A stretch of 64,000 nucleotides of DNA from an uncultured Actinomycetota bacterium (lineage in GTDB: Bacteria; Actinomycetota; Coriobacteriia; Anaerosomatales; JAGXFU01): positions 398,873 through 462,872 of the forward strand of contig CAWBOJ010000003.1 of assembly GCA_963790405.1 (NCBI GenBank). Direction: 5' to 3'. Below are positions 3,364-57,581 of the stretch, piece by piece; position 1 is the stretch's first letter, and each line of letters opens with the position of its first letter. The position numbers and the translations under genes are program-made. The notes beneath the pieces were generated by a model. That model did no database searches and had not been told where the DNA came from. It was given only the letters and a program-made list of their open reading frames with translations.

Positions 3364-4117
3364 CTACCCGCTTTGCCAGCGCTCGAGCCACCATGCGACC
3401 GAGCGGTTCATCTCGGCCATGAACTCTGATGCGTACTTGCGACGGTGGACGACCTCCGGGTAGCTGGTGGCTCCGGGAGGCAGGCCGTGGGGAGCGTGCA
3501 TCTCTTGCAGCTCTGCGCTCACGATGTCGAGCTCTTCGGCACCGAGGCGCCGGTAGCGGTCGGTGTGCACCATGTGGCGTGTGTATCGAGGGACCGGTGA
3601 GCGCTCAACAGCGGGCCGTCCGAAGCACAGCATTGCAATCGGCAGCGTGTGATCGGGCAGGCCGAGGAGTTCCGCGTGGATCTCGCCGTTCTCGAGCACG
3701 TCACCGATGTAGCACGAGCCGATGCCGAGCGACTCGGCTGCGATGACCGCGTTCTGCGCGGCGATCAGCGCGTCCGAGCAGGCGAGCAGCAGGTCGCCGC
3801 CGCCGGGAGGCCTGCGTGTCTGCTCCGAGGGCCGCACCGGTGTGGTCGAACAGGTCGGTCCACTTCTGGAAGTCGGCCACGAACACGAGGACCCACGGCG
3901 CGGTCGCGATGAACGGCTGGTCGTCGCAGGTCACCGCGAGGCGGTCTTTGATGGACTGATCGACCACGTCGATGATCGTGTACAGCATCATGTTGCCGCC
4001 GGTGGGAGCGCGGAAGGCTGCCTCGAGGATCGCGGTCTTCTCGGCGTCGGAGATGGGCTCAGCCGAGTAGCTCCGGGTCGACGTGCGTCGGGCGATGAGT
4101 TCGAGTGTCGGATTCAC
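3364..4117 (-). CDS. nitroreductase family protein, frame-disrupted near 3815
   Basis: The N-terminal piece (ORF 3701-4117, 'RTSTRSYSAEPISDAEKTAILEAAFRAPTGGN') and the C-terminal piece (ORF 3364-3837, 'DALIAAQNAVIAAESLGIGSCYIG') are in different frames and overlap. Confidence 0.75.
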
Positions 4118-4185
4118 GGCGGGCTCCTGTGGCAGGGGCGGGCTCTGGCGCCCAGTGTAGCGCTCCGCGTTGCCCCTCCTGGGCC

Positions 4186-4279
4186 CGCTCGGTATACTCG
4201 CACGTGCGCTCGAAGCAGCCTTGCGCTGCTCGCGCCATCGCGGAGAGGTGGCAGAGTGGTTGAATGCGGCGGTCTCGAA
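4186..4279 (+). repeat. 94-bp direct repeat, copy A (tRNA-Ser upstream region + first 38 nt of tRNA)
   Basis: Base-for-base identical to 7075-7168 by manual alignment. Includes the TATACT box (4193-4198). Identity ends inside the anticodon loop (CTCGAA|). Confidence 0.85.
4242..4279 (+). pseudogene. truncated tRNA-Ser 5' half (acceptor, D-arm, 5' anticodon stem)
   Basis: GGAGAGGTGGCAGAGTGGTTGAATGCGGCGGTCTCGAA equals nt 1-38 of the intact tRNA at 7131. No T-arm or 3' acceptor strand follows. Confidence 0.8.
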
Positions 4280-4685
4280 CGCCCTTCATCCCCCTTGAGC
4301 TTGGTCAGTGACTCGTCGCTGCGGTCTCGAAACCTCTCGTTCGGGATGAGCTGCACAGTCCCAGGGCGCATGCGTGCATCAAGGAAAGTAGGTGCACCAC
4401 CGGGGCCTCGAACAAGGAAGCATCGCAGCGGCGCCGAATCCAATCAGCAGACTGTGACGTTTGTCACACTAGAGGGGTCGCGGCCCGCGTGGAGGACGAG
4501 CCGGGGCGCTTCCGTGATGCACGGGTGCGTCAGGGGATCGCATGCAACCACGCGGGCATATCTCTGTTCCAGCTCAGTGCCGAGGCGGGCCGCACGGCCC
4601 GCCTGTCTTCGGCGTTTCCGTCGGTCCGGTTTGCCGACGGGCACGCATCGTTCGATCCCAATGCATGTGGCTCTAGGGTAGGGAG

Positions 4686-6929
4686 ATGAAAATGCGAAAT
4701 GCAGTGACGAGGATCCTCTTGGCGGCGGTGCTGGTGGCCATGCTCGTCCCGACGCACGCTGCGGCGGTCGTGGCGCGCGATGGGGTGGATGCCCCGGCGC
4801 AGGTCAGACAAGACAGGCGATCCCATCCGCTCGGAGAGAAGGCTGCTGCGCTGCGGGCGAATGCGGTCCAGGCGAAGTATGCGGGAGGGGTCGAGGGCGA
4901 CGGCTACGAGGTGGAGCCGGGTGAATTCGATGAGCTGGAGCTCGACGGCACGGGCCAGGTCTGGACCGTGCCGGGTGAGTTCTCGGACTACCCGCACAAC
5001 AGCATCCCCGAGCCGGATCGCACCGTTGACAACTCGACGATCTGGACCGAGGACTTCAGCGAGGCCTACTACGACGACATGCTCTACACCCAGGGCGATG
5101 ACGTCATCTCGATGGCCGAGTACTTCCTCGAGATGTCGAGTGGGCGCTACACCGTCGATGGCGACTGCGTCGATTGGGTGGAGCTGCCCTACGACCACGA
5201 GTACTACGACGACGGCACCGCCACAAACGACACGTCCGAGAACGTGTGGCTGTTCCTCGCCGACATGCTCAACGGCTGGTACGCAGCCGAGAGGGCGGCA
5301 GGCAAGAGCGATGCAGAGATCAATGAGTACCTCGCCAGGTTCGACACGCGCGACCGCTACGACTGGGACGGAGACAGCGACTACGACGAGCCTGACGGCT
5401 ACATCGACCATTTCCAGTCGCTTCATTCGGGTGAGGGCGAAGAAGCCGGTGGTGGCGAGCTCGGGGACGAGGCGATCTGGAGCCACAGCTGGTATGCGAA
5501 CTACGCCGACATCGGGAAGACCGGCCCCTCCGATGACTTCCTGCTCGGTGGCATCCAGATCGGTGACAGCGGTTTCTGGATCGGCGACTACACGATCCAG
5601 CCGGAGAACGGCGGCGTGGGCGTGTTCGCGCACGAGTACACGCACGACCTGGGTCTGCCGGACCTCTACGACACGGTTGGCGGGGACAACGCCACCAGCT
5701 TCTGGACGCTGATGGACAGCGGCTCGTGGCTCTCGCAGGTCGACTACGACCTCGGCTCCGCACCGGCGCACCAGGGTCCCTGGGAGAAGCTCATGCTCGG
5801 CTGGCTCGATGTGGAGGTCGCTGAACCCGGCGAGACCGCGGAGCTGACCTTGGGTCCCGTGGAGTTCAACTCGACCCAGCCCCAGGCGCTGCTCGTGAAT
5901 CTGCCTGACAAGTTCGTCGAGTGGGACATCGGCGACCCGTATGCCGGTGAGTACTTCTACTACAGCGACAAGGGTGACAACCTACGCAACCAGATGTCCA
6001 AGGCGTTCACACTGCCCGCGGGAGCGTCCCTGACCGCGATGGTGAACTACGGCATCGAGAAGGGTTACGACTACGCGAACGTCATCATCTCGACGGACGG
6101 TGGCGACACGTGGGATACGGTGCCGACGAACCTCTCGAGCTCGACCGTCGAGGACAACGGCATCGACGGGTTCTCCAACGGGTGGGAAGAGCTGACCGCC
6201 GACCTCTCGGCCTACGAGGGTGACGTGCTGTTGGGCTTCAGCTACATCACGGACGGTGGCGTGGCCGAGATTGGCTTCATGGTCGACGACATCGCAATCA
6301 CCGGGGCCGACCTGGACGGTGCCGAGGATGCCGACGCCGGCTGGACGTACGATGGCTTCAAGCGCACCACCGGCTACGAGAGCGGCTACTACTGGAACTA
6401 CTACCTGGCCGAGAACCGGCAGTTCTACGGATGGGACTCTGCGCTGGCCAACTGCTACAACTGGGGCTTCTTGAAGGGCAAGACCGCGATGGTCAACTGG
6501 GCGGAGCGATTTGCATACGAGCAGGGTCTGCTCGTCTGGTACTGCGACACGTCGCAGCCGGACAACAACGCGAGCGTGCATCCGGGTACCGGTTTCGCGT
6601 TGCCGGTCGATGCGCATCCGAAGGCCCTTACGATCGGCAAGAGCAAGCAGCTGTGGCGCAACCGGATCCAGACCTACGACTCGCCATTCGGCCTGACGGC
6701 GACACACGCGCTGCCGCTGCACTACAATTCGCGGCTCGTACCGATCGCCAGCCAGGCGGCGAACCCGGTCTTCGACGACTCTCAGTCGTACTACGATCCG
6801 GCGAACCCGACCGGCAGCGTGATCACGCCGCTGGGCATGGGTGCACGGATCGAGGTGCTCGGCACCCTAGACGCCGGAGACAACGGTGTCTACATGGGGG
6901 TGCGTGTGACGGCGCCCGAGCTCGACTAG
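4686..6929 (+). CDS. secreted M6-family (immune inhibitor A-like) zinc metalloprotease
   Basis: 747 aa. Signal peptide (ILLAAVLVAMLVPTHAAA). Zinc motif HEYTHDLGLPDLYD, characteristic of InhA/M6 peptidases. Frame intact. Confidence 0.85.
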   Translation: MKMRNAVTRILLAAVLVAMLVPTHAAAVVARDGVDAPAQVRQDRRSHPLGEKAAALRANAVQAKYAGGVEGDGYEVEPGEFDELELDGTGQVWTVPGEFSDYPHNSIPEPDRTVDNSTIWTEDFSEAYYDDMLYTQGDDVISMAEYFLEMSSGRYTVDGDCVDWVELPYDHEYYDDGTATNDTSENVWLFLADMLNGWYAAERAAGKSDAEINEYLARFDTRDRYDWDGDSDYDEPDGYIDHFQSLHSGEGEEAGGGELGDEAIWSHSWYANYADIGKTGPSDDFLLGGIQIGDSGFWIGDYTIQPENGGVGVFAHEYTHDLGLPDLYDTVGGDNATSFWTLMDSGSWLSQVDYDLGSAPAHQGPWEKLMLGWLDVEVAEPGETAELTLGPVEFNSTQPQALLVNLPDKFVEWDIGDPYAGEYFYYSDKGDNLRNQMSKAFTLPAGASLTAMVNYGIEKGYDYANVIISTDGGDTWDTVPTNLSSSTVEDNGIDGFSNGWEELTADLSAYEGDVLLGFSYITDGGVAEIGFMVDDIAITGADLDGAEDADAGWTYDGFKRTTGYESGYYWNYYLAENRQFYGWDSALANCYNWGFLKGKTAMVNWAERFAYEQGLLVWYCDTSQPDNNASVHPGTGFALPVDAHPKALTIGKSKQLWRNRIQTYDSPFGLTATHALPLHYNSRLVPIASQAANPVFDDSQSYYDPANPTGSVITPLGMGARIEVLGTLDAGDNGVYMGVRVTAPELD

Positions 6930-6993
6930 TCCGTTGCCCCAACGGGAGGATGCGGTCTCACGAGCGGGTCGCGGACTTTCGGGGGATCTCATA

Positions 6994-7029
6994 CAGAGGG
7001 TCCGCTTCCGAGAGGGGGCGGGCCCTCTG
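6994..7029 (+). terminator. stem-loop downstream of the protease gene
   Basis: CAGAGGGTCCGC ... GCGGGCCCTCTG forms a 12-bp stem with one mismatch. No clear T-tract. Confidence 0.4.
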
Positions 7030-7074
7030 CATAAGGCGAGGCTGACTGCTGGCCACGATTGCCCCGTCTCGGTA

Positions 7075-7168
7075 CGCTCGGTATACTCGCACGTGCGCTC
7101 GAAGCAGCCTTGCGCTGCTCGCGCCATCGCGGAGAGGTGGCAGAGTGGTTGAATGCGGCGGTCTCGAA
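7075..7168 (+). repeat. 94-bp direct repeat, copy B
   Basis: Identical to 4186-4279. Here it continues into a complete tRNA. Confidence 0.85.
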
Positions 7169-7223
7169 AACCGTTAGGCGGGTATCCCCCGTCTCGAGGG
7201 TTCGAATCCCTCCCTCTCCGCCA
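7131..7223 (+). tRNA. tRNA-Ser (anticodon CGA), encoded CCA
   Basis: Manual cloverleaf. Acceptor GGAGAGG/CCTCTCC. Anticodon stem GCGGT/ACCGT with loop CTCGAAA. Long variable arm. T-arm GAGGG-TTCGAAT-CCCTC. Discriminator G plus CCA. Confidence 0.9.
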
Positions 7224-7431
7224 TATGCAGGGAAAACGTGGTCCCGGTGCTCCTGATAAGGAGGCCGGGGCTGCGTGCGTATTCGAGCGAACTGCAAACC
7301 TCACCGCACCGCTCAGTACTCGGTATCATGGTGAGGCGTTCGATTTCGCGGTGAGGACACGGGTTCAAGTCCTCCAGGTGATGACCGAGTGCTCACAACC
7401 GATGCATTAGCTGGGAAGGAAGGGTGTCGAA

Positions 7432-8551
7432 GTGCGCTATCGCCGCATGCCGATCGAGGTTGAGTCGCCCGAGCAGTTGGGCTACTCGACGATCACGAAC
7501 AACCTGTCCGAGAGTTCGGTCTCGGACAGACGGCTGAGCGACCTGGGGCTGCCGATCGAACTCGACGATCTGCTGCTGTGCTACGGAGACCACCTTGGAG
7601 ACCCGCCGCTGCGCGAGGCGATCGCGGCCCTTGGACCCGGTCTTTCGCCCGAGGACGTTTTGGTCACACCCGGCGCCGCGACGGCTCTGTTCTGCACCGC
7701 GACGACGATGCTCGATCCCGGCGACCATCTCGTCGTCGTTCGTACGAACTACGCCACGAATCTTGAGACGCCACGTGCGATCGGTGCGGATGTCGACGTG
7801 GTCGATCTGCGTTTCGAGGATGGCTGGGCTCTCGATATCGACCACGTGCGGTCCCGGGTCGAGCCCGGACGAACCAAGATGATCAGTGTCACCTGCCCTC
7901 ACAATCCGACGGGCACCATGATGTCTGAGCCCGATCTTCTTCGGCTGGTCGAGTTGGCCGAGGACTCGGGTGCCGTATTGCTCGTCGACGAGACGTACCG
8001 CGATCTGACACATGGGGAGCAACTCCCCATGGTGGCGACGCTGTCCGCGCGGGCTATCAGCGTTGCCTCGGTGTCAAAAGCCTATGGACTGCCGGGATTG
8101 CGCATCGGTTGGGCTGTCACCACCGATCCCGACTTGCAGCAGGCGCTGCTGGCGGCCAAGGAGCAAGTGGTGATCTGCGGCTCGACGATCGACGAGCACA
8201 TCGCCGGACGCGTGCTCGCCGATCGAGAGCGGATCCTAAGCCCGATCCTGTGCGACGTTCGCGAGCGTGCGGCCGTCGTCCAGTCGTGGATGGACGCTCA
8301 GACCGTGTTCGAGTGGATTGTGCCAAGCGGCGGCGTGGTGGGGTTCGTGCGCTTCCGCGAGGAGTTTATCGTCGACGAACAGGAGTTCTACCGCTGTCTG
8401 CTTGATGACTTCGGTACCTATGTGGGCCCTGGGCATTGGTTCGAGGTCAGCGATCGGCACTTCCGGCTTGGCTTCGGCTGGCCCACGCGAGCAGGAGTTG
8501 CAAGACGGTCTCGAAGGTCTGACGCAGGCGGCCGAGCGCGCTCGGCGGTAG
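7432..8551 (+). CDS. PLP-dependent aminotransferase (class I/II), frame-disrupted near 8487
   Basis: PLP-lysine motif 'SVSKAYGLPGLRIGW'. The expected C-terminus 'REQELQDGLEGLTQAAERARR*' is in the +1 frame (ORF 8267-8551). The listed ORF reads through to 8820 as nonsense. Confidence 0.8.
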
Positions 8552-8589
8552 CGCCGCTCGTTCCCGAGCGGGGAGAGTCAGACCCGGTG

Positions 8590-8642
8590 CCGTTAGGCGG
8601 GTTTCTCCCGTCTCGACGGGTAAGAATCCCTCCCTCTCCGCC
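8590..8642 (+). pseudogene. diverged copy of tRNA-Ser 3' half (variable arm, T-arm, acceptor 3' strand)
   Basis: CCGTTAGGCGGGTttCtCCCGTCTCGAcGGGTaaGAATCCCTCCCTCTCCGCC aligns to 7171-7222 with about 6 mismatches (the T-stem and T-loop TTCGAAT are disrupted). It begins exactly after the anticodon loop. Confidence 0.65.
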
Positions 8643-8665
8643 GTATAGATTGAAGACGTCCGCTC

Positions 8666-9346
8666 CTAGGCAAAGAGGGGTGGACGTTCTAGCCTCTTGG
8701 CGGCGTGCTGCTCGATCGCAGCGCGGTGGTATGTCTCGACCGCGCTGGCGACCTCATCGAACAACTCTGGCGGGCAGTGGAGGCGGAGCACCGTGCGCCA
8801 CGAGTTGTGCAGTGCGATGACGCGTTGGCGTCGGTAGACGGTGACGCGATGAACGCTCTCCCAGGGGACAAGCGTTCGCTCGCGGCTCATGGCAAGCGCG
8901 CCTGCTCCGGCGGTTGTGGGGTTGCGCGCGAGCAAACCCACGATCACGACCAGTTTGTTCATGGACCGCTCGCGCTTCTCGGCACGGTACTCAACGCCCT
9001 TCGCGCTGACGATGAAGCGCGCGCCCTGCCGGTTGCCCAGCAGGAGGCTTGTGAGAACGAACAGGCCCGCCATGATGCCAGCCGTGAGGAAGAACACCAT
9101 CGGCGGCAAGATGATCAACTCACGTTCAATGATCAGGCCGCCCACGGCGACGATCACATACATCGCCGCAACGGAGAGTAGGATCACGCGCAGGAAGTCC
9201 CACAGCATGAACCGACTGGTCAGCAGAGGAATATCGTAGGTCCATTCGATTGGATCAGGGGCGGGATTTGGAGCGTGATCGGTCGCGGCGTCTGGTGCTT
9301 CAAGCACGAGATCCTCCCTTGATCCTGCGTTGCGGTCGGGCTCCAT
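8666..9346 (-). CDS. hypothetical membrane protein (2 TM + C-terminal cytoplasmic domain)
   Basis: 226-aa intact ORF with two long hydrophobic helices (LRVILLSVAAMYVIVAVGGLII; MVFFLTAGIMAGLFVLTSLLL). No family recognised. Confidence 0.55.
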   Translation of the reverse strand: MEPDRNAGSREDLVLEAPDAATDHAPNPAPDPIEWTYDIPLLTSRFMLWDFLRVILLSVAAMYVIVAVGGLIIERELIILPPMVFFLTAGIMAGLFVLTSLLLGNRQGARFIVSAKGVEYRAEKRERSMNKLVVIVGLLARNPTTAGAGALAMSRERTLVPWESVHRVTVYRRQRVIALHNSWRTVLRLHCPPELFDEVASAVETYHRAAIEQHAAKRLERPPLFA

Positions 9347-9430
9347 GATAGCAACGGTGCAAGAATGTGGCTCGTCGCCCGCAAACCCCGCTATAGTCAG
9401 TACGGATGCAACACGAGCTGGGGAGGGTTC

Positions 9431-10072
9431 ATGGGCGAGGGATCCGCGCTGTTCTGTACGAAATGCGGGGAATCGCTCGGCAGCTCGGACAAGTTCTGCA
9501 AGAAGTGTGGGAGTCCTCGAAGGGACTCGGTATCGGCTCAGGCAGCGGCTACGCAGCGACCCGCTGCCGTTGCGACTGTCGTTGCGAGTGCGACAGGGGC
9601 GGCATCCATGGCCGCGGGTCTTCCCTGGCAGACGATCGTCGCCGGCGAGACGCCGGATCTTCGCGCGATGTTGTCGGGTGCGGCTATTCCGGCGGCTCGG
9701 TCTGTCGTGCAGCGCTCCCTACGGCGTCCCGGGCTCTCGATGGCCGCCACCGTAGCGCTCGACCTGCTCGTGGCAGGTGTCTCCGGGGGACCCGCTGCGC
9801 TCGCCGCGGCTATCCCGCGTGCGCTTGGCGGCGGCACGACATCGCTGCTCTCACTGATCACCGGCTCCAAAGGCGGCGCGCTGCGCGGTCTCACCGGTAT
9901 CGTCTCTCTAGTGACGGCTGCAATGCAGATAGTCTCGCTTGGGGGGTCGCTTCTTTCGGGGCTGGCAGACGGGACACCGCTGCTCACGCTCGCACCAATG
10001 GCGGTGGCGACGGCCTCGGCGCTCATCATGGCGCTCAAGACGGCCTCGGTGGCCTTGAGGAGGCGGTCCTAG
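9431..10072 (+). CDS. zinc-ribbon domain membrane protein
   Basis: N-terminal CxxC-x10-CxxC ('FCTKCGESLGSSDKFCKKCGSP') followed by Ala/Gly-rich hydrophobic segments. The stop abuts the next ATG (TAGATG). Confidence 0.6.
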   Translation: MGEGSALFCTKCGESLGSSDKFCKKCGSPRRDSVSAQAAATQRPAAVATVVASATGAASMAAGLPWQTIVAGETPDLRAMLSGAAIPAARSVVQRSLRRPGLSMAATVALDLLVAGVSGGPAALAAAIPRALGGGTTSLLSLITGSKGGALRGLTGIVSLVTAAMQIVSLGGSLLSGLADGTPLLTLAPMAVATASALIMALKTASVALRRRS

Positions 10073-13000
10073 ATGCGCACACTTCGTCGCTTCGCGATTC
10101 GCCGCGCCATCGCGCTTTGCATGCTCGGCTGCATCGCGGCACTGCTCGCACTGCCGGTTCTCGCGTACGCAGCGGACAACCTCGTCACCGCCTACAACAT
10201 CCCCGACTTCTGGATGCAGGGCAGCAACGACGAAGCTACTTCTCGGCTAGCGGGGAATACGGCGACGTTGATGGCTGGAGCGGCACGGCCGGTGTCATCG
10301 TCAAGTCCCTGACTCCGGAGAACCCGTACACGGGTGCGCCCGAGGAGGACTACTACACCTCCTTCGAGGACTTCGCCGCGCGCTCGGGTGGCTCGGTGAC
10401 GCTCTACACGAGCCCGACGATCAGGTGGCGATCGAGATCGACTACGTCTGGAGAAGGGGCGCAGAAGACGACCCTCGGCGGTCTTGAGGCCTGGTCGAAT
10501 ATCGGCATGTTCAAGCAGTACGACGGCGGACTACCCAACTGGTTCCAGACCGCGTGGATCAGTACTGGATTCCCACCGATCGACGGCGGCATCTACGTTG
10601 TCGGCGGCGGGTACCGTCGCCGGCGAGGACGCCGAGCGAACAGTTCGACTCGATGGTGAACGACGTCGAGTCGGTTCTCGCGTCGCTCCGGTTCAACGCT
10701 TCCGGCGCGAGTGCGGGACCCGCGACACCCGCGGACGGCGAGGGCTCCTCGCCGTGGCGAACGGTGGTCGGCGGCATCGGAGCTCTGGCTGCAGCGGCGA
10801 TCGCCATGGCGGGAGCTGCGGCGAGTGCTCGCGCGAAGAGCGGCGAGCCTGAGCCGGAGCCGGACAAGCCGGTGGGCTACGTGCTGCAGCTTTCCTCGGC
10901 ACGTCTTACGGTGAGCGAGGAGCATTCGGCGACTCTCACCATCCAGGCATTCCGGGTGCTTCCGAGCGGGCAATATCAGCCCGCTCCTGAGGCGGGCATC
11001 GCTGTCACGCCGTCTGATGGCGTGAGCGTGGAGCCCTCGAGCGCGTACGGCACGCTCACTGCGGTGGTGTGGCAGACCGGACCGGTCGCGCTGGGTGCAG
11101 GCATTGCGATTCAGGCGACTGCTCCGCTCGGCACGACGCAGGCTATGGTGCGCGTTGCTGCCGCGGGCGTGAGTCGCATCGCCACGCGCTTTGAGCCCGC
11201 CGGCAAGCTCGAACTCCGCACAGAAGGCGAAGACTCGGTCACGCTCGTGGCGGCGATCGAACTCATGGGTGCGGACGCGGATTCCGGCCTCGATCCTGCC
11301 ACCGTTCGCGCATCGATCGCGTTTGCCGAGGACTCCGAGTGGCTCGAGATATCTGCCCCCGCCGACTACGAGGACGGCCGCGCGATCACGATGCGGGCAT
11401 CCCGGCCCGACTCGTCGACCTTTGTGCAGCCGCCGGAGAGCGCGATGGTGCGCGTGAGTGCGATGGTGGGGGAGCGTCCCCTGACAGAGATGGTCGCCAT
11501 CACGTTGGCGCGCCTACCGTGGCTCGACGCCTCCCCCGACACCGTGTCGCTCGCCGCCGATTCAGGCGTGGGCGCCGAGGTGAACGTGTGGGTCGAGAGC
11601 GGAAGTGGCGTGCAGTGGCAGTTCGATACCGAGTGGCGCGAGGGTTCGCGGCTGATCGCAACCCCCGATATCGTGTCCACCGGCGCGGCTACGGCCGCAC
11701 TCACGCTCACCGAAAACGCCGGCGACCGGCTCGATCCCGCACGCCCGCAGACCGAGGCCACACTCGTGGTGCTCGCCAGGGCCGAGGGTTTCGAGCCGCT
11801 CAAGCGCGAGATTCAGGTCATCGTCACGCAAGAGGGGCTCTTCATCGACCGCACGAACACAGACCCCACGACCGGTGCGTTCCACCTGAAGGCCGACGGT
11901 AGCGCTACGCCTGCCGACATCGACGTGCGGGTCTACGTTCGCGATCCCGCCACCAACACGATCGCGCCCGACATTGCGCTTGCGCAGCAGGTGCAGCTCG
12001 AGATCGGTGGCGAGGAGGGGACTCCGGGTCGCGCTGGCCTGAAGTCAGGCGGTCTGCTGGTTGCGCCTGCGGGTGTGCGCCCGAGCAACGTGCCGAGCGC
12101 CACGTTCCGCCTCGGCATTGAGCGGCAGCTACCCACCGGCGGCGAGGCGCTCCCTGCCACGGTGCGCGCGAGCATTCCTGGCCGAGATGAGCCCGCGTTC
12201 AGCGCGCTTGTGCCGCTCCGGCTGCTCGGCGTGAACACCGATCCCTTCTCGGCAGCGTGGCAGACCGAACTCGACGGCTGTCGCGACGTCATCCAGTTCT
12301 ACGTGCCTCACGAGTATCAGGAGCGTCTGCTACGCGTTGGTCAACGAGCGCTCGCTGACCATGGGCGCCGAGGGTCTCTACCTGATGCGCATGCAGCTAT
12401 GGAGCTTCGCGCACGACCAGCTCGTGAAAGAAGCGCACGAGTACATGGATTCCGCGTGGTGGATCCAGCAGATCGAGGACACGCTCGACTGGGTCTCATG
12501 GTGCGGCGACATCGCGTTTGGCGTGGCAAGCGGCACGTATCTGGGAGTCGTGGGCGCGGTCGCGATCGGCATGCTCAAGCCGATGCTCGTCTCGGCCATG
12601 GAGGTCTGGCTCGCCGGTGGCTCGCTCGAGGACTGGCTCGCGGCGCAGACCACCATGCTCACCGGAACCGCCGAAGGCATGCTCACCGACCCGGACGTGC
12701 TCTCCAAGCTCACCGCCGACAAGAAGGCGCTCGCGTGGGCGCTGTTCATCGCCTACTACTTCGCCAAGGAACTCTACAACGACCCGAACATGTCCGTAAC
12801 GAACGCGATGAAGAACGTGGGGAAGCAGCTGCGCGACGAGGGGCTCATCATGTTCCTTCGCCACATCGCGAACATGAAGTCCGTGCGCGGGCCCAGGGTC
12901 GATGGCGGGACTTCGAAGAAGCCGGGCGCAGCTGATGGGCCGACCAAGAAGCCCGTCGCGTCCGACGGCCCCGATTCGCACAAGCAGCCCGACGCACCCG

Positions 13001-14022
13001 AGAAGAAGCCCGACGCAGCCGAGAAGAAGCCGGATGCACCCGAGAAGAAGCCCGACGCACCCGAGAAGCCGGCGCCCAAGAAGCCCAAGGCCTCACCCAA
13101 GGAGCGCGCCGCGGCGATCGCAGATGACATCGCCGCCAAGACCGCCAACGGCGAGCCGCTTGACCGGGCAACCGTCGAGCGCGTCATGGTCGACCCCGAT
13201 GCCATGCGCGAACTCAAGCGCAGCAACCCCGAGGCCTGGGCAAAGATCAACGAGACGCGCGCAGAGGTCTACAAGGGTCACGACGCCGATCTCAAGGAGT
13301 GGATCGAGAAGAACGTACCGGAGGCCGAGGGCCGCCAGATCGAAATCCGGAGTGTCGGCACGATAGACGGCGTCGATCGCGACTACCGCGCCGGCTACGT
13401 AGTAGAAGGTCCCGACGGGACCAAGCGATTCATCGAGCTCAAGAAGGAGACGTGGGCCGGCGAGTCCCAGCGCATATTCGCCAAGGAGACCGGCGGACCC
13501 ACCGATCCCAAGGGCGCCGCCAAGTGGGCAAAGGACCACCAGCAGCTCGCAACCGACCAGTACCACGCCGAGGCGAGCGTGGACATGGCCGACCAGGGCA
13601 CGATTTACAATGAGCAGACCGGCAAGTGGGAGAAGACCCAGCTCACGCCCAATGCGGACCTCGTCAAGCAGGGCAGATCGACGCTGCTCGACCCCGACGG
13701 CTACGGGAAGACCTACGAGAGCAAGGTCGCCGAAGCGTACTCCGAAGGCAACCACCTCGATGCCTACGCGCAGGCCGACAAGGCGGTGCACTCGTTGGAG
13801 TGCGTGCGCGACGGGTACGACATGCAGGGCTACGATGTGAAGAACCTGCCGCCCAACATCGAGGACGGCATGCGGGTGATCAAGGACGTGCAGAGCGGCG
13901 ATATCACGCCTGCAGAAGCCGAGGCGCGACTCAGAGGCCTCAACTACAAGGGTGGTCTGCCGGATTTCATGGAGAAGGTCTCCGGGCAGTTCGCCGGCTT
14001 CAAGTGGGCGAGGAAGAAGTAG
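10073..14022 (+). CDS. large mosaic membrane/surface protein of unknown function, reconstructed across at least 4 frame changes
   Basis: Signal peptide (CMLGCIAALLALPVLAYA) in ORF 10073-10312. It continues in frame 1 (GEYGDVDGWSGTAGVIVKSL...), then frame 3 (ORF 10554..., TM GGIGALAAAAIAMAGAAA plus beta-rich repeats), then frame 1 (ORF 12337-14022: TM bundle, PDAPEKK linker, about 300-aa C-terminal domain). Could alternatively be 2-3 adjacent genes. Confidence 0.5.
12988..13071 (+). repeat. in-frame tandem repeat, 4 x 21 bp (PDAPEKK)
   Basis: The unit CCCGACGCACCCGAGAAGAAG is repeated four times with 1-3 substitutions each. It encodes 'PDAPEKKPDAAEKKPDAPEKKPDAPEK'. Confidence 0.9.
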
Positions 14023-17089: not shown

Positions 17090-18100
17090 ATGAGTCGGAC
17101 GGCAAACACGATGCGAGATCTCGCTGCGGCCACCGAGCACTACGTGGCGCAGACGCTGCACGCACGTCTCCACCTCGATGCGTGGCCGGCTGCGGCTACG
17201 CTGCCGCCGTATTTGCGCACGACCTATCAGCTCATGCGCGGCAGGCTCGGCGAGACCCCGATCCTCTGGCTCCTGGCCGAGGAGCCGGTCACTCCCAAGA
17301 CCCTCGAGAAGCACATCGACACGCTTGCAGCGCATTGGCCCGGGGCGATGGTTGCCGTGTTTCGCGTGTTGCCCGCATACGTGCGGCAACGCCTGATCCA
17401 GAAGGGAATCGCATTCGTCGTTCCGGGCACGCAGCTCTACCTTCCTGGACTGGGGTTCGACTACCGAGAACGCTCCGCTGCGCCGCGCGAAGAGCGAGAG
17501 CATCTCAGGCCATCCGCGCAGCTGCTCTTGCTCTACCTGCTCTATCGACAAACGGACCGCGCGATGACTCTCAGCGACATCGTGCCGGAGCTCGGCTACA
17601 CCCTCATGACAGTGAGCCGCGGTGTTGCGGAACTCGAAGCTGCGGGGCTGGTCGAGACAACGAAAGTGGGTCGCTCCAAGACGGTTCGTCTGGCCAAGAC
17701 TCCGGACGAGACTTGGGGGGTCGCGCAAGAGCGCTTGAGCACGCCCGTCGTGCGCACGGTTGCTGTCCCGGCTGCAGCGTGGGGCGATGTCGTCAGGCCG
17801 TTCGCGGGACTTTGCGCTCTTGCCGGATACACCATGCTGCAAGGCCCTCCAGGTGCCGTGCGCGCGATTGGGGCTACGAAGGCTCGTGAGCTCGACGTAG
17901 CGGATCAAGTCATCAAGGATGCCGAGGAGTACGTCGCCGAGGATGATGTCGAACGCACGGAGATTTGGGCATACGACCCGACGTTGCTTGCGAGTGGTCC
18001 GGCCGTCGATCGACTCTCCCTGTATCTCACGTTGCGCGACGATTCTGACGAGCGGGTACAGATGGCGTTGACCGAACTGCTTGAAGGCATGACATGGTAA
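17090..18100 (+). CDS. winged-helix (MarR-like) protein, putative antitoxin/regulator of an AbiE-like module
   Basis: Central wHTH 'MTLSDIVPELGYTLMTVSRGVAELEAAGLVETTKVGRSKTVRL'. The stop overlaps the next gene's start (ATGGTAA). Confidence 0.55.
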   Translation: MSRTANTMRDLAAATEHYVAQTLHARLHLDAWPAAATLPPYLRTTYQLMRGRLGETPILWLLAEEPVTPKTLEKHIDTLAAHWPGAMVAVFRVLPAYVRQRLIQKGIAFVVPGTQLYLPGLGFDYRERSAAPREEREHLRPSAQLLLLYLLYRQTDRAMTLSDIVPELGYTLMTVSRGVAELEAAGLVETTKVGRSKTVRLAKTPDETWGVAQERLSTPVVRTVAVPAAAWGDVVRPFAGLCALAGYTMLQGPPGAVRAIGATKARELDVADQVIKDAEEYVAEDDVERTEIWAYDPTLLASGPAVDRLSLYLTLRDDSDERVQMALTELLEGMTW

Positions 18101-18855
18101 GGGGTCTCCAGCGCTTCCAAGAGCACTTCGCAGGCCTCGAGGACCGCTATGTGCTCATCGGCGGAGCGGCGATCGACGTGGCGATGGACAACGCGGGTCT
18201 CGACTTTCGCGTGACCAAGGATCTGGACCTGGTGCTGCTGGTCGAGTCGCTGGACGAGCGGTTCGGCAGCATGTTCTGGGAGTTCGTGAAAGCCGGCGGC
18301 TACAGCAACCGTCAGAAGAGCACCGGGAAGTCGCTTTTCTACCGTTTCCACTCGCCCAGCGATGCGACGTATCCCGTGATGCTCGAGTTGTTCTCCCGAA
18401 CACCCGATGTCATCACGCTGCCCCCCGATGCCGAACTCACACCGCTTCCAATCGCCGAGGAAGTCTCCAGCCTCTCGGCGATACTGCTCGACGACGGCTA
18501 CTACGAGTTCATTCGCACTGGAGCCCGCGAAGTGGAGGGTCTGACGGTCCTCGGCCCTGAGCAGCTCATTCCGCTCAAGGCGCGAGCCTGGCTCGATCTC
18601 ACGGTGCGCCGGGAGAGCGGTGAGCAGGTGGACGGCAGGGACGTCAAGAAGCATCGCAACGATGTCGTGCGTCTGTATCAGCTGATCGCGCCCGCAGCAC
18701 GCATTGAACTGCCCGACACGATAGCCGAGGACGTGCGTGCGTTCCTGGAGCGTGCCCTCGACGCCGGTTTCGATCCGAAGTCAGTCGGGGTACGCGGTGT
18801 GAGCGTCGCCGAGGTGATCGAGACGCTGAGGCGCGTGTACGGGGTGGGGGCTTGA
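18094..18855 (+). CDS. nucleotidyltransferase-fold protein (AbiEii/DUF-NTase-like), putative toxin
   Basis: Pol-beta NTase signature 'LIGGAAIDVAMDNAGLDFRVTKDLDLVL' (GG...DxD). 253 aa, translationally coupled to the wHTH gene. Confidence 0.55.
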   Translation: MVRGLQRFQEHFAGLEDRYVLIGGAAIDVAMDNAGLDFRVTKDLDLVLLVESLDERFGSMFWEFVKAGGYSNRQKSTGKSLFYRFHSPSDATYPVMLELFSRTPDVITLPPDAELTPLPIAEEVSSLSAILLDDGYYEFIRTGAREVEGLTVLGPEQLIPLKARAWLDLTVRRESGEQVDGRDVKKHRNDVVRLYQLIAPAARIELPDTIAEDVRAFLERALDAGFDPKSVGVRGVSVAEVIETLRRVYGVGA

Positions 18856-34573: not shown

Positions 34574-35191
34574 ATGAAACGGCCACCTTCAGAGGCAGCG
34601 CTTCGGCATGCGGCCGACGTGTTCATGCAGCACGGCGGGACTATGCGCACCGGTGAGGCCGCGTCGGCAGGGATTCACTACGCGACGCTGTACTGGATGA
34701 GAGATCAGGGACGCCTCGAGCGCCTCACCCGGGGCGTCTACCGGCTGGCTGAACTGCCTGCCCCCGGCAAGTACGATGTAGTTGCCGTCGCAGAACGGGT
34801 GCCGGCAGCGGTGCTGTGCCTCGTCAGTGCTCTCGACTTTCACGATATCGGCAATCAAATACCGCACGCCGTGGAGATTGCAGTTGGGCCGAGTGACCGG
34901 CATCCGAAACTCGATTACCCGCCGTTGCGCGTTTATCGCATGTCAGGCGAGGCGCTCACATCAGGCATCGAGGAGCACGATGTGGACGGCACGAGAGTCC
35001 GCGTGTATAGCATCGCCAAGACAGTTGCCGACTGCTTCAAGTTCAGGAACAAGATCGGCTATGACGTGGCAATCGAGGCTCTGCAAGAGGTCGTGCACGA
35101 ACACCTCGCATCGCCGGCGGAGATTATGGAGTACGCCCAGGTCGACCGAGTCGCGCGGATTGTCAGGCCCTACCTTGAGGCGCTTCAGTGA
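34574..35191 (+). CDS. type IV toxin-antitoxin system AbiEi family antitoxin
   Basis: 205 aa. N-terminal wHTH 'GGTMRTGEAASAGIHYATLYWMRDQGRLERLTRGVYRLA', C-terminal 'KTVADCFKFRNKIGYDVAIEAL'. 4-bp overlap with the next gene. Confidence 0.8.
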   Translation: MKRPPSEAALRHAADVFMQHGGTMRTGEAASAGIHYATLYWMRDQGRLERLTRGVYRLAELPAPGKYDVVAVAERVPAAVLCLVSALDFHDIGNQIPHAVEIAVGPSDRHPKLDYPPLRVYRMSGEALTSGIEEHDVDGTRVRVYSIAKTVADCFKFRNKIGYDVAIEALQEVVHEHLASPAEIMEYAQVDRVARIVRPYLEALQ

Positions 35192-36120
35192 GCGCCCGGC
35201 AGGTCACTAACGTACCCGCGTCGGTACGCGGGCGGCTTGTGAACCGCGCGAGGGAGCAGAGGGAGTCTTTCGACCAGATACTCCTGTACTTCGCCATCGA
35301 GCGCTTCCTATTCAGGCTTTCGCGCACGGAATGGGGAGACCGTCTCGTGGTCAAGGGCGCCACGATGCTCCGAGCGCGGGGCACACCGCTGGGCAGACCG
35401 ACCAAGGACATCGACTTCTTCGGATCCATAGATGCATCTCCGGCTAGCATCGAGCGGATCATCAGGGATTGCCTGCGTGTAGAGTACCCGGCTGACGGCA
35501 TCGTTTTCGGGGATGAGATCAAGCTATCCGAGATCACAGTGGCGAATCGCTATCCGGGTGTTCGCGTCGTGCTTCGGGGTCATCTCGATAACGCGCGCTT
35601 CAAGCTCAAGCTGGAGATCGGCGTTGATGATGCAGTGGTACCCGACCCGGGGTGGGTCGACTACCCCGTGCTGCTCGATCTCGAGGCTCCGCGCGTACTT
35701 GTCTACCAACCAGTCACCGCCATTGCCGAGAAGCTCGAGGCGATGGTCAAATTGGGCATCACCAACAGTCGAATGAAGGACTTCTACGACATCTGGCTGT
35801 TGGCGCGGACACAACGATTCGACGGCACCGAGATGGCATCGGCCCTTCGCGCAACGTTTGATCATCGACAGACACCGTTGCCAGAGGGGTTGCCGGTTGC
35901 ATTCACCCCGGCCTACTACGATGACCCTGCGGTGCAGGCGAGATGGCGCGGTTTCATCGCCAAGTACGGGATTGATACTGCCGATGAACTGGCAGAGATA
36001 TGCGCAGCAATCGCCAAGTTCGTGATGCCGGCGCTGCAAGCTTCGGCCCAGGGCGCCGACTTCCAGATGGTGTGGACTGCGGAATCCGGCTGGATGCCAG
36101 TTGAGGAGGCCGAGGAGTGA
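35188..36120 (+). CDS. nucleotidyltransferase AbiEii/AbiGii family toxin
   Basis: 310 aa. 'ILLYFAIERFLFRLSRTEWGDRLVVKGATMLRA...RPTKDIDFFG' and 'PVTAIAEKLEAMVKLGITNSRMKDFYDIW' match AbiEii motifs. Confidence 0.85.
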   Translation: MSARQVTNVPASVRGRLVNRAREQRESFDQILLYFAIERFLFRLSRTEWGDRLVVKGATMLRARGTPLGRPTKDIDFFGSIDASPASIERIIRDCLRVEYPADGIVFGDEIKLSEITVANRYPGVRVVLRGHLDNARFKLKLEIGVDDAVVPDPGWVDYPVLLDLEAPRVLVYQPVTAIAEKLEAMVKLGITNSRMKDFYDIWLLARTQRFDGTEMASALRATFDHRQTPLPEGLPVAFTPAYYDDPAVQARWRGFIAKYGIDTADELAEICAAIAKFVMPALQASAQGADFQMVWTAESGWMPVEEAEE

Positions 36121-42993: not shown

Positions 42994-44353
42994 GTCACAT
43001 GTCCGCGCGTTCGAGCCGGATCACCCGCGTGCTCCTGGCTGCGGCTACACGCGGCATCGTTCGCTCGCGCTTCGGTCTGGCGTCCGCGCCTGCTCGGCGT
43101 AGTGTATTTGCCGAGGAGTGGCGCCGCGCGTTCGAGGAACTGGGGGGCGCCTTCATCAAGCTTGGTCAGATGATTTCGGTTCGGCCCGACGAGTTCGGCG
43201 ATGAACTCGCGGGCGAGATGGAGCGGCTTCGGGACAGGGTGGCTCCGGTCCCCTTTTCGAGTCTTCTTCCGGTTATCGAGGCGAGCCTGGGAGCTTCGGT
43301 ATCGTCGCTGTATGCGTCGGTTGAAGAGGTGCCGATCGCGACTGCGTCGGTGGCTCAGGTACATGGTGCCGTGCTCGCCTCGGCGTACCGGCCGGTGTGG
43401 GGCGATGAGCTGCCGGCAGGCGCGAAAGTCGTAGTGAAAGTCATCCGCCCCGGGGCGGCGGAGGCGCTGCGAGCCGATGTAGCCGAAGCTCGGCGCCTCG
43501 TGGCCAGCGCACTCGTGCACCGTGCGTTGCGCGGCGTCGATCTCGAAGCGATCCTCGACGAATTCGCGGCGTCCCTCGAACGCGAACTAGACCTGCGCGT
43601 CGAGGGCCGTATCGCCGACCGGTTCGCGTTCGACTTTCGTCCGGATCCAAGATCGTCGTGCCGAGGATCGTGTGGACGCACTCCGCGCCGCGCGTTCTCA
43701 CCATGGAGCGCATGTACGGATGGCGGCTCTCGGAGCTATCCGAGGCGGAGCTGGCCGGCGTCGACGCGCATGCCCTGGCCGTGCACGGCGCGACCGCGTT
43801 CATGCGCCAGGTCATGCTCTACGGCCGCTACCATGCCGACCTGCACCCATCGAACCTGTTCGTCACCCCCGACAGCCGGATCGCCTACCTCGACTTCGGC
43901 ATCGTGGGTCACCTGACCGACGCCGAGCGCGGCGACATCGCGCAGGTGCTCGGCGGCTTCGTCTACCGAGACGCCGACCGGGCGCTTCGGTACTCGGCCA
44001 ACCTCGGCGTGGTTGTTCCACCGCACAAGGTGGCAACAGTGCGCCGAGAGCTCGGTGAGCTGCTCGACAAGACGATGGCGGGTGGAAGCAGCGACTTTCG
44101 CCACTTCGGCCTCGGGTTCCTTGGCCTGCTGAGGCGCAACGGAATCGCGATCCCCGGCGGCTACGGGCTGCTCGTCAAGTCGCTTGCGACGGTCGAAGGT
44201 GTCGCGCGGCGGCTCTACCCCGACATCGACATCATGGAGGTCGCGCGTCCATTCGTGACCCGCATGATCGGCGACAGCATCGGCCGCCCGGAGACGCTGC
44301 AGCAGCGGATTCCGGCGGTGTGGCGTGCCGCGATGCGCGAGCTTCTGGCATAG
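42990..44353 (+). CDS. ABC1/UbiB (AarF) family atypical kinase, frame-disrupted near 43645
   Basis: 'LGGAFIKLGQMISVRPDEF', 'IATASVAQVHGA', 'VVKVIRPG' (ORF 42990-43916), then 'VLTMERMYG', 'GRYHADLHPSNLFV', 'YLDFGIVG' in ORF 43658-44353. Confidence 0.8.
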
Positions 44354-57298: not shown

Positions 57299-57581
57299 TG
57301 CATCCTCCGGATGAGTCCTCAGGTGTCGCCATTCTCGGCCCGTCGCGTCACTCGAAGGGGTTCCTACCCAATGTCGGCGTGGTCCACCTTGTGAGCGGCA
57401 GTGTTCGAACACCAGGGTGCTGAGCAGCTCTCATGGCACACGGTGTGCTACACTGCGCAAGGCTTTTCCCAAAGACCCGGTTGTCTTCGCGTCGCCACCG
57501 ATGGCGACGACCTTCTAGAGCAACTGCGTCTGCAACGCGGTGCCGCCTGACTTGGCCGGCACGCTCGAAGGAGACAACTGA

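What the first reader, a model, noticed from the sequence alone, without database searches (positions are those of the whole stretch)
4186..7168. Perfect 94-bp duplication of tRNA-Ser upstream region + 5' half brackets an InhA-like protease cassette
4186-4279 and 7075-7168 are identical at every base. Each holds 56 bp of upstream sequence (including a TATACT box) plus the first 38 nt of tRNA-Ser(CGA).

Identity stops inside the anticodon loop (CTCGAA|). Only the downstream copy continues into a complete tRNA. The upstream copy is a promoter-equipped 5' half-tRNA.

The 2.8 kb in between carries a single intact gene for a secreted M6 (immune-inhibitor-A-like) metalloprotease and its terminator. 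A further 14-nt echo of the anticodon stem-loop (GCGGTCTCGAAACC) sits at 4321-4334.

Duplicating a tRNA 5' half is the reverse of the usual integrase footprint, which duplicates the 3' part. The absence of any divergence argues for a very recent event or an assembly artefact.
Basis: seen in the sequence. Interest (0 to 1): 0.6.

Follow-up and report, generated by a model that had tools for sequence, protein, structure and literature searches.

The report
Leftover half-tRNA copy beside protease gene
A perfect 94-base copy of the promoter and first half of a serine tRNA gene really does sit 2.9 kb upstream of the intact gene with a protease gene in between, but it is best read as a scar of past recombination in the tRNA's anticodon loop, a known minority type of island footprint, not as a new kind of element.

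Summary
4186-4279 and 7075-7168 are identical, and only the downstream copy continues into tRNA-Ser(CGA) (7131-7223). The 2.8 kb between them holds one intact M6/InhA protease gene.

New facts change the reading:
- A decayed 3' fragment of the same tRNA lies at 8590-8659, starting right after the anticodon loop.
- The closest relative (L005, protease 84% aa) has protease-terminator-promoter-tRNA-Ser but no upstream half-copy. The protease-tRNA junction is therefore old.
- Homology extends 16 bp left of the perfect block, from the -35 box, with 5 mismatches there. The 37-nt leader is identical in both window copies yet differs at 8 sites from L005. This suggests an old duplicate later homogenised, probably by gene conversion.
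- More distant relatives keep the protease next to enolase or a MalY-type aminotransferase, so the gene moved to the tRNA.
- No integrase was found in the ORFs scanned across the 64 kb.
- 5'-fragment islands are already known (159 of 3919 in Islander).

Best reading: a degraded, integrase-less island remnant in the 5'-fragment configuration. An assembly artefact is unlikely. Interest is low to moderate.

The parts
3364..4117 (-). Nitroreductase gene, frameshifted near 3824-3828. It is the left flank of the upstream tRNA fragment. The ArsR-type gene that overlaps its start in relatives L012 and L013 is absent here.
   Evidence: Pfam PF00881 hits on two overlapping ORFs. Frames compared. Relatives' context.
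4170..4198 (+). Upstream promoter copy, TTGCCC-17-TATACT. Its spacer (4176-4185) differs from the downstream copy at 5 positions.
   Evidence: Promoter scan. Three-way alignment with L005.
4186..4279 (+). Perfect 94-bp repeat, copy 1. It holds part of the spacer, the -10 box, the 37-nt leader and tRNA-Ser(CGA) positions 1-38 (4242-4279).
   Evidence: Exact identity. No tRNA called here.
4280..4431 (.). 152-bp junction segment 'J' of unknown origin. It has no homologue in L005 and, apart from the echo, no similarity to the tRNA.
   Evidence: Alignment with L005 shows homology starting at 4432. Shuffle tests.
4318..4332 (+). Echo of the anticodon arm, GCTGCGGTCTCGAAA (14/15). With 4266-4280 it forms a direct repeat 52 nt apart.
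4432..4685 (+). Protease upstream region conserved with L005. It includes the palindrome TGTGACGTTTGTCACA (4453-4468) and a hairpin at 4579-4613.
   Evidence: Alignment. Fold z = -3.2.
4686..6929 (+). Intact secreted M6 (immune inhibitor A-like) metalloprotease. It has a signal peptide and the HEYTH motif. The database copy P0001 starts at 4692.
   Evidence: Pfam. Homologues listed.
6994..7029 (+). Terminator-like hairpin after the protease, also present in L005.
   Evidence: Fold gives -33.6 kcal/mol, z = -6.2. Alignment.
7059..7087 (+). Promoter of the functional tRNA gene.
7075..7168 (+). Perfect 94-bp repeat, copy 2.
7131..7223 (+). Intact tRNA-Ser(CGA), followed by a terminator hairpin at 7236-7276.
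   Evidence: ARAGORN. Rfam 60 bits. Fold.
7447..8552 (+). Class I/II aminotransferase, 91% aa identical to the L010 gene, with an extra base near 8474. It is a native downstream neighbour of tRNA-Ser(CGA) in L010 and L011.
8590..8659 (+). Decayed 3' fragment of tRNA-Ser(CGA), from the 3' strand of the anticodon stem to the 3' end plus 13-16 nt of flank. Its T-loop is broken (GGGTAAGAAT). A hairpin follows at 8656-8687. It abuts the stop of the gene at 8666-9346(-).
   Evidence: Absent from L010 and L011.

Best explanation
The upstream copy is a displaced, promoter-bearing 5' fragment of the tRNA-Ser(CGA) gene. It is the outer scar of an old recombination event in the anticodon loop.

**Proposed event (inferred).** The event placed a DNA segment (J, the M6 protease gene, its terminator, and a promoter plus 5' half) on the 5' side of the tRNA. 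The gene was rebuilt from the incoming promoter and 5' half and the resident 3' half. The original promoter and 5' half were pushed 2.9 kb upstream, next to the nitroreductase gene. This is the '5' tDNA fragment' island configuration, the mirror image of the usual one. Tyrosine integrases targeting the anticodon loop are the known cause. Whatever recombinase did it is no longer in the window, and only cargo remains.

**Age.** The event is not recent. The protease-tRNA junction is shared with a relative at about 82% nucleotide identity. The 94-bp perfection most likely reflects later homogenisation of the dead copy by the live gene, through gene conversion between 110-bp direct repeats. The conversion tract would be bounded on the right by the end of homology at the anticodon loop.

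**Second scar.** A more decayed fragment of the usual 3' type lies downstream at 8590-8659. Breakpoints at this anticodon loop therefore occurred at least twice.

**Present-day consequences (inferred).**
- An extra tRNA-type promoter points into the protease gene.
- RecA-type recombination between the repeats could delete the protease precisely.
- No function is expected for the half-tRNA itself.
For: **Shown**
- Geometry fits the island signature. A full tDNA has a same-orientation 5' end fragment upstream and a 3' end fragment downstream. Islander accepts exactly this configuration and lists 159 such 5' cases and 2083 anticodon-centred sites (PMC4383910).
- Both fragments break at the anticodon loop. 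The 5' copy ends at tRNA position 38 and the 3' copy starts at position 41. A third anticodon-arm echo lies at 4318-4332.
- Truncated copies are rare: 0 of 120 metagenome hits and 0 of 2 viral hits.
- The protease is not anciently linked to the tRNA. It lies next to enolase and/or a MalY-type aminotransferase in L002, L007 and L008, and the window's MalY-type gene is at 53.9 kb. L010 has tRNA-Ser(GGA) rather than the protease upstream of tRNA-Ser(CGA).
- The left flank is a breakpoint. Nitroreductase homology to L012 is confined to the gene, and its ArsR partner is missing.
- Two layers of age are visible. There are 5 of 16 spacer differences between the copies, with L005 intermediate (2 and 3 differences). 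There are 0 of 94 differences in the next stretch, although the leader differs from L005 at 8 sites. Placing all 5 differences in the leftmost 16 of 110 bases by chance has probability about 6e-5.

**Inferred**
- Integrase involvement, gene conversion, and promoter read-through.
Against: - No integrase, transposase or other recombinase was found in any of the 40 ORFs scanned across the 64 kb. The defining island gene is missing.
- L005 carries protease-tRNA without a displaced fragment. If the event is shared, L005 must have lost the fragment.
- The protease shows no compositional anomaly.
- Nothing similar turned up on known plasmids, phages or viral contigs.
- The two fragments do not overlap by a common core. 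A canonical anticodon-loop att site (both stem strands plus the loop) is incomplete in each.
- The right-hand 'island' would contain an aminotransferase that is a native neighbour of the tRNA in L010.
- Gene conversion is inferred, not shown.
- Only three informative relatives exist. None is closer than about 82-85% nucleotide identity.
Confidence: 0.45

Rival explanations
1. The duplication arose without a site-specific recombinase. One route is a tandem duplication of J-protease-promoter-5' half followed by deletion of the first protease copy. Another is replication template switching that dropped short templated pieces (the 110-bp piece and the 15-nt echo) at a rearrangement breakpoint.
For: - No recombinase gene is present.
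- The junction is complex. A 38-nt filler sits between two copies of GCGGTCTCGAA, and mismatches cluster at one edge.
- Gene order in this clade is very fluid.
- L005 shows protease-tRNA as a resident arrangement.
Against: - It must treat as coincidence that the 5' fragment ends and the 3' fragment begins within 3 nt of each other in the anticodon loop.
- The echo is the same anticodon arm.
- It needs at least two steps plus a separate explanation for the diverged spacer.
- It does not explain why the protease left its enolase/MalY neighbourhood.
Confidence: 0.22
2. A single insertion split an ancestral tRNA-Ser(CGA) that lay between the nitroreductase gene and the gene at 8666-9346. The 4.3-kb insert (4280-8589) brought its own complete tRNA-Ser(CGA) to replace it. 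This resembles the 'tRNA-dependent lysogeny' of actinobacteriophages.
For: - One event would explain both fragments. Together the 5' piece (positions 1-38) and the 3' piece (positions 41-93) make almost one gene, with a full same-isotype tRNA between them.
- The mechanism is documented in Actinobacteria, with short 8-17 bp cores and a phage tRNA complementing the broken host gene (PMC10865867).
Against: - The order tRNA-aminotransferase-(variable genes)-homologues of window 8717-11347 is syntenic in L010 and L011. The right part of the supposed insert and its right flank therefore belong together.
- No core sequence precedes 8590.
- The ages are very unequal: 100% identity for the 5' fragment against 81-89% with a broken T-loop for the 3' fragment.
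- There are no phage genes or integrase.
- The 'insert' tRNA shares its promoter and leader exactly with the 'host' half.
Confidence: 0.1
3. The structure is an assembly or polishing artefact. Either the junction is chimeric, or the perfect identity was created by polishing a diverged copy with mis-mapped reads.
For: - Four of about ten genes checkable against close homologues are frameshifted: nitroreductase, two aminotransferases and an ABC1 kinase. The assembly may therefore be error-prone.
- The source appears to be a metagenome-type 715-kb contig that could not be retrieved.
- The sharp switch from 5 of 16 mismatches to 0 of 94 could be a polishing boundary.
Against: - A collapse or misjoin at a 94-bp repeat would give nitroreductase-repeat-3' half with one copy. 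It would not give two copies with a novel 4279|4280 junction followed by 152 bp of unique DNA.
- The diverged spacer shows that two distinct copies exist.
- The frameshift pattern suggests long reads, which span 2.9 kb easily.
Confidence: 0.06

Closest known systems
tDNA-integrated genomic islands with a displaced 5' tDNA fragment (minority class in Islander; Hudson, Lau & Williams 2015, PMC4383910)
   Same: An intact tRNA gene has a same-orientation 5' end fragment upstream. The break is at the anticodon loop, the commonest crossover sublocation. The gene is rebuilt from element-side sequence, here including the promoter. The interval exceeds 2 kb and carries cargo.
   Different: There is no integrase in the interval or in the scanned ORFs of the 64 kb. 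The interval holds a single gene. The nearest relative has the cargo next to the tRNA without the fragment. The fragment is perfectly identical over 94 bp but diverged just outside that block. The att core is incomplete.
Classical 3'-fragment tRNA islands (attL = rebuilt tRNA, attR = displaced 3' fragment)
   Same: The fragment at 8590-8659 lies downstream in the same orientation, reaches the 3' end of the gene, starts at the anticodon stem, and abuts conserved chromosomal genes.
   Different: The interval is only 1.4 kb. It holds an aminotransferase that also neighbours the tRNA in L010, and it has no integrase. The fragment is absent in L010 and L011.
tRNA-dependent lysogeny of actinobacteriophages (Guerrero-Bustamante & Hatfull 2024, PMC10865867)
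   Same: The topology is 5' piece, then a full tRNA of the same isotype, then a 3' piece, in an actinobacterial genome. The broken halves are not rejoined.
   Different: There is no short common core at the right junction and there are no phage genes. The right side is syntenic with relatives. The two halves are of very different age.
Split tRNA genes of Nanoarchaeota
   Same: A separately promoted 5' half ends one to two nucleotides after the anticodon.
   Different: The 3' piece is decayed and has no promoter. The trailer and leader are not complementary (p = 0.40). The half-transcript has no special fold (z = +0.86). A complete gene is present.

Membership tests
tDNA genomic island (Islander criteria) | Full tDNA plus a cognate end fragment in the same orientation on the same replicon | tested here: met
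   The tRNA is at 7131-7223. The 5' end fragment is at 4242-4279 (100%) and the 3' end fragment at 8590-8646 (89%), all on the + strand.
tDNA genomic island (Islander criteria) | Configuration: 5' fragment upstream or 3' fragment downstream of the tDNA | tested here: met
   Both fragments are on the permitted side (rule quoted from PMC4383910).
tDNA genomic island (Islander criteria) | Tyrosine integrase gene inside or overlapping the interval | tested here: not met
   The interval 4280-7130 encodes only Peptidase_M6. No Phage_integrase or other recombinase hit appeared in the 40 ORFs scanned across the window.
tDNA genomic island (Islander criteria) | Length 2-200 kb | tested here: met
   The left interval is 2.9 kb and passes. 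The right interval is 1.4 kb and would fail.
tDNA genomic island (Islander criteria) | Island absent from the same tRNA in some relatives (empty site) | tested here: inconclusive
   L010 has tRNA-Ser(CGA) without the protease, but with tRNA-Ser(GGA) upstream. L005 has the protease but no fragment. No relative closer than about 82-85% nt was found.
Anticodon-loop (type A) att site | Core made of both anticodon-stem strands flanking the 7-nt loop, present at both junctions | tested here: not met
   The 5' copy stops at loop position 6 and is followed by C-GCCCT, which matches ACCGT at 3 of 5. The 3' copy starts at the 3' stem strand and is preceded by unrelated sequence. The echo at 4318-4334 has the 5' stem, the loop and CC only.
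tRNA-dependent lysogeny | Short common core at attL and attR, an element-encoded tRNA of the same isotype, and integrase with phage genes | tested here: not met
   A same-isotype full tRNA lies between the halves, so that part is met. There is no core before 8590 and there are no phage or integrase genes. The right side is syntenic with L010.
Split tRNA gene | Complementary trailer and leader allowing the halves to pair, with both halves intact and expressed | tested here: not met
   Duplex energy is no better than shuffles (p = 0.40). The T-loop of the 3' piece is mutated. Expression is not testable here.
Peptidase M6 (immune inhibitor A) | M6 catalytic domain with HEXXH, plus MAM-like and VEG domains | tested here: met
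   PF05547 at 1e-73, PF20773 at 2e-33, PF20774 at 3e-36. HEYTH is encoded at 5631-5645.

The most novel reading that the evidence does not exclude
The 2.9-kb unit (J, protease, terminator, promoter, 5' half) is a living, integrase-less single-gene cassette. It would insert into the anticodon loop of tRNA-Ser(CGA) from the 5' side, rebuild the gene with its own promoter, and be mobilised in trans by a recombinase encoded elsewhere in the genome. The echo at 4318-4332 would be part of its recombination site. A variant of this reading is that the promoter-equipped half-tRNA is expressed and has a function of its own, or serves as a strong promoter for the protease.
Probability: 0.06. Interest if true: 0.6.

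Novelty: new member of a known kind. Interest (0 to 1): 0.27.

Why it matters
If the main reading holds, this is one more example of the uncommon 5'-fragment island footprint, here in an uncultured Coriobacteriia-like actinobacterium.

It has three instructive features:
- The element-side sequence had to include the tRNA promoter.
- The scar has outlived its integrase.
- A dead gene fragment seems to have been kept identical to the live gene by conversion. This can mislead age estimates that rely on repeat identity.

Practically, integrase-dependent island finders would miss it. The 94-bp repeats also make the secreted protease gene deletable in one recombination step. It does not open a new question or reveal a new mechanism.

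Tried and rejected
- **Source genome.** Exact look-ups of the protease (both the 747-aa and 745-aa starts) returned nothing. Reads and the rest of the genome could not be examined.
- **Nitroreductase relatives.** L012-L014 share only the gene itself, so the ancestral left flank could not be reconstructed.
- **Metagenome scan with a 30-mer of the 5' half.** It gave 120 loci, all full tRNAs. None was related to the window beyond the tRNA.
- **Viral contigs.** Two full tRNAs and no protease relative.
- **Plasmids and phages.** Only tRNA hits and one distant InhA gene on a Streptomyces plasmid.
- **J as a decayed full tRNA or 3' half.** Rejected, because only the 15-nt echo is significant.
- **8541-8589 as a decayed 5' half or leader.** Not significant for the 5' half (p = 0.6). 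Borderline once the leader is included (p = 0.02).
- **Split-tRNA idea.** Rejected.
- **The protease-aminotransferase pairing as the same one seen in L002 and L007.** Rejected. Those are MalY-type genes, 25% identical to the window's 7447-8552 gene, and their window homologue lies at 53.9 kb.
- **Compositional anomaly of the cassette.** None found.
Full report
**1. The observation**

Bases 4186-4279 and 7075-7168 are identical at all 94 positions, and the exact match extends in neither direction. ARAGORN finds one tRNA in the 64 kb, tRNA-Ser(CGA) at 7131-7223. Rfam agrees at 60 bits. The repeat therefore holds 56 bp of upstream sequence plus tRNA positions 1-38, and it ends after the sixth base of the anticodon loop.

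Both copies carry a predicted promoter, TTGCCC-17-TATACT, at 4170-4198 and 7059-7087. The ORF 4686-6929 is an M6/InhA-like protease with all three family domains. A strong hairpin follows it at 6994-7029. The 'echo' at 4318-4332 matches the anticodon arm at 14 of 15 positions and is significant against shuffles (p about 0.001).

**2.

- **A longer region of homology.** Similarity continues 16 bp left of the perfect block, back to the -35 box at 4170/7059, with 5 mismatches.
- **A third tRNA piece.** A 3' fragment lies at 8590-8646, with similarity running to 8659. It is 81-89% identical to 7171-7239 and has a mutated T-loop (GGGTAAGAAT). It begins at the 3' strand of the anticodon stem.

The layout is therefore:
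- nitroreductase (-)
- promoter + 5' half
- 152 bp of unique DNA ('J', with the echo)
- protease regulatory region
- protease
- terminator
- promoter + full tRNA
- terminator
- aminotransferase
- 3' fragment
- conserved genes

The two fragments break within 3 nt of each other in the anticodon loop. The 10-mer CGGTCTCGAA occurs four times in the window, all within this locus.

**3. How unusual a truncated copy is**

A 30-mer of the 5' half is widespread. Truncated, promoter-bearing copies are rare.

**4. Relatives**

The organism is a Coriobacteriia/Anaerosomatales-like actinobacterium, judged from the names attached to homologues. The source contig could not be retrieved. Three sets of relatives are informative.

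- **L005 (protease 84% aa, 82% nt).** It is collinear with the window from 4432 through the protease, its terminator, the same promoter and the tRNA 5' part, where the contig ends. Upstream of 4432 it has a divergent alpha/beta-hydrolase gene and no tRNA piece. The protease-tRNA junction therefore predates the split of these two lineages.
- **L010 and L011 (aminotransferase 91% aa).**
  - The gene order is promoter, tRNA-Ser(GGA), tRNA-Ser(CGA), Aminotran_5, aminotransferase, four variable genes (including Fic), then homologues of window 8717-11347.
  - The right side of the tRNA is therefore resident chromosome.
  - No protease lies upstream there, and no 3' fragment is present.
- **L002, L007 and L008 (protease 73-76%).** There is no tRNA within 8-10 kb. 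The protease sits downstream of enolase and/or upstream of a MalY-type aminotransferase. The window homologue of that aminotransferase is 47 kb away at 53.9 kb. In the window/L005 lineage the protease has therefore moved to the tRNA.

The nitroreductase side is a breakpoint. Homology to the closest relatives is confined to the gene itself. The ArsR-type gene that overlaps its start in those relatives is missing here.

**5. Age of the duplication**

In the 17-nt spacer between the -35 and -10 boxes, the two window copies differ at 5 positions. L005 is intermediate, with 2 differences from the upstream copy and 3 from the downstream copy.

Immediately to the right, 94 bases are identical. Yet the 37-nt leader within that stretch differs from L005 at 8 sites. 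Placing all 5 differences in the leftmost 16 of 110 bases by chance has a probability of about 6e-5 (my calculation).

The simplest reading is an old duplicate, at least as old as the window/L005 split, whose right-hand 94 bp were later overwritten from the live gene by gene conversion. The tract would end where homology ends. This is inference. A polishing artefact could mimic it (section 8).

**6. Mechanism**

No integrase, transposase or other recombinase was found in the 40 ORFs scanned across the window. The geometry is nevertheless that of tDNA islands.

Islander accepts a 5' fragment upstream of the gene as a valid configuration. It lists 159 such islands against 3760 with 3' fragments, and 2083 anticodon-centred sites (PMC4383910). 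I therefore favour a degraded island remnant in the 5'-fragment configuration (confidence about 0.45). In that reading, recombination in the anticodon loop brought J, the protease and a promoter + 5' half to the tRNA and displaced the resident promoter + 5' half towards the nitroreductase gene. The 3' fragment at 8590 is a second, older scar of the usual polarity.

Weak points of this reading:
- The integrase is missing.
- The att core is incomplete at both junctions.
- L005 lacks the displaced fragment.
- The aminotransferase inside the right-hand interval also neighbours the tRNA in L010.

**7. Rivals**

- **Duplication plus deletion, or template switching (0.22).** This fits the complex junction and the fluid gene order. 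It must treat the shared anticodon-loop breakpoints as coincidence.
- **A single insertion carrying its own replacement tRNA (0.10).** This is the tRNA-dependent lysogeny model (PMC10865867). It explains both halves at once. Three things contradict it:
  - the synteny of the right side with L010;
  - the absence of a core before 8590;
  - the very unequal decay of the two halves.
- **A split-tRNA reading.** Rejected. There is no trailer/leader complementarity, the half-transcript has no special fold, and the 3' piece is decayed.

**8. Artefact?**

A collapse or misjoin at a 94-bp repeat would leave one copy. It cannot create the new 4279|4280 junction followed by 152 bp of unique DNA, nor two copies with different spacers.

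Four of about ten genes that could be checked against close homologues are frameshifted. They are the nitroreductase, both aminotransferases and an ABC1 kinase. This suggests an error-prone, probably long-read, assembly. It has two consequences:
- The 'pseudogene' status of the flanking genes is uncertain.
- Perfect identity could have been sharpened by polishing.

I give an artefact about 0.06. Only the reads can settle it.

**9. Function**

The half-tRNA lacks the 3' strand of its acceptor stem and is not expected to be processed. This rests on general knowledge of RNase P substrates.

Two consequences are plausible but unproven:
- **Promoter donation.** A second tRNA-type promoter points into the protease gene. 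The scan finds no terminator before a hairpin at 4579-4613.
- **Deletability.** The protease could be removed in one step by recombination between the repeats.

The protease keeps its own conserved upstream region, including the palindrome TGTGACGTTTGTCACA, which is shared with L005.

**10. Verdict**

This is a real feature and was correctly described. It is interpretable within a known, if uncommon, class of tRNA-gene scars. It is not recent, not a new mechanism and probably not an artefact. Novelty: new member of a known kind. Interest: about 0.27.

Noticed in passing
window 3364-4117(-), 7447-8552(+), 42999-44350(+), 53851-54949(+): Four genes are frameshifted relative to close homologues: a nitroreductase, a class I/II aminotransferase, an ABC1/UbiB kinase and a MalY-type aminotransferase. 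That is about 4 of 10 genes that could be checked. It points to an error-prone assembly or to widespread pseudogenisation.
   Followed up: partly
window 8506-8515: A fourth copy of the anticodon-arm 10-mer CGGTCTCGAA lies inside the 3' end of the aminotransferase, 84 nt before the 3' tRNA fragment. L010 has CGGTCTCGCA at the same codons. It could be coincidence or a pseudo-attachment site. This is unexplained.
   Followed up: partly
window 4453-4468 (and L005 4326-4341): A perfect palindrome, TGTGACGTTTGTCACA, lies about 230 nt upstream of the protease start and is conserved in the 84% relative. It is probably an operator for an unknown regulator.
   Followed up: no
window 7286-7421: A 136-bp stretch replaces the Aminotran_5 gene that lies between the tRNA and the aminotransferase in L010. 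It contains a T-arm-like hairpin, GAGGAC-ACGGGTTCAA-GTCCTC (about 7352-7373), which ARAGORN and Rfam do not call.
   Followed up: no
L010 8249-8472: In the relative GCA_038325105.1, tRNA-Ser(GGA) and tRNA-Ser(CGA) are tandem behind one promoter with the same GGTATACTCGC -10 region. The window and L005 have no tRNA-Ser(GGA) here, so it must lie elsewhere in those genomes.
   Followed up: no
L010 11105-13810 and L011 1314-4019: A variable block (PEMT, 4HBT, a small ORF or HTH_3, and Fic) lies between the aminotransferase and the conserved downstream genes, at the position where the window has the 3' tRNA fragment. This spot is a hot spot for gene turnover.
   Followed up: partly
window 12982-13068 and 12800-13800: A coding tandem repeat of 21 bp, 4.1 copies (KKPDAPE), sits inside a large ORF with no Pfam hit. 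The region has a very strong AT skew (up to 0.50).
   Followed up: no
window 56540-57412(-), 18094-18855(+), 35188-36120(+): The window holds a heliorhodopsin gene (PF18761, 5e-96) and two AbiEii-type nucleotidyltransferase toxin genes, the second a strong hit (1e-44).
   Followed up: no
L005 7000-7033: The Logan contig of the closest relative ends inside the anticodon arm (…GCGGCGGTCTC). The assembly graph of that sample therefore branches at the same place. This could reflect strain or species variation, or a similar duplicated junction.
   Followed up: no
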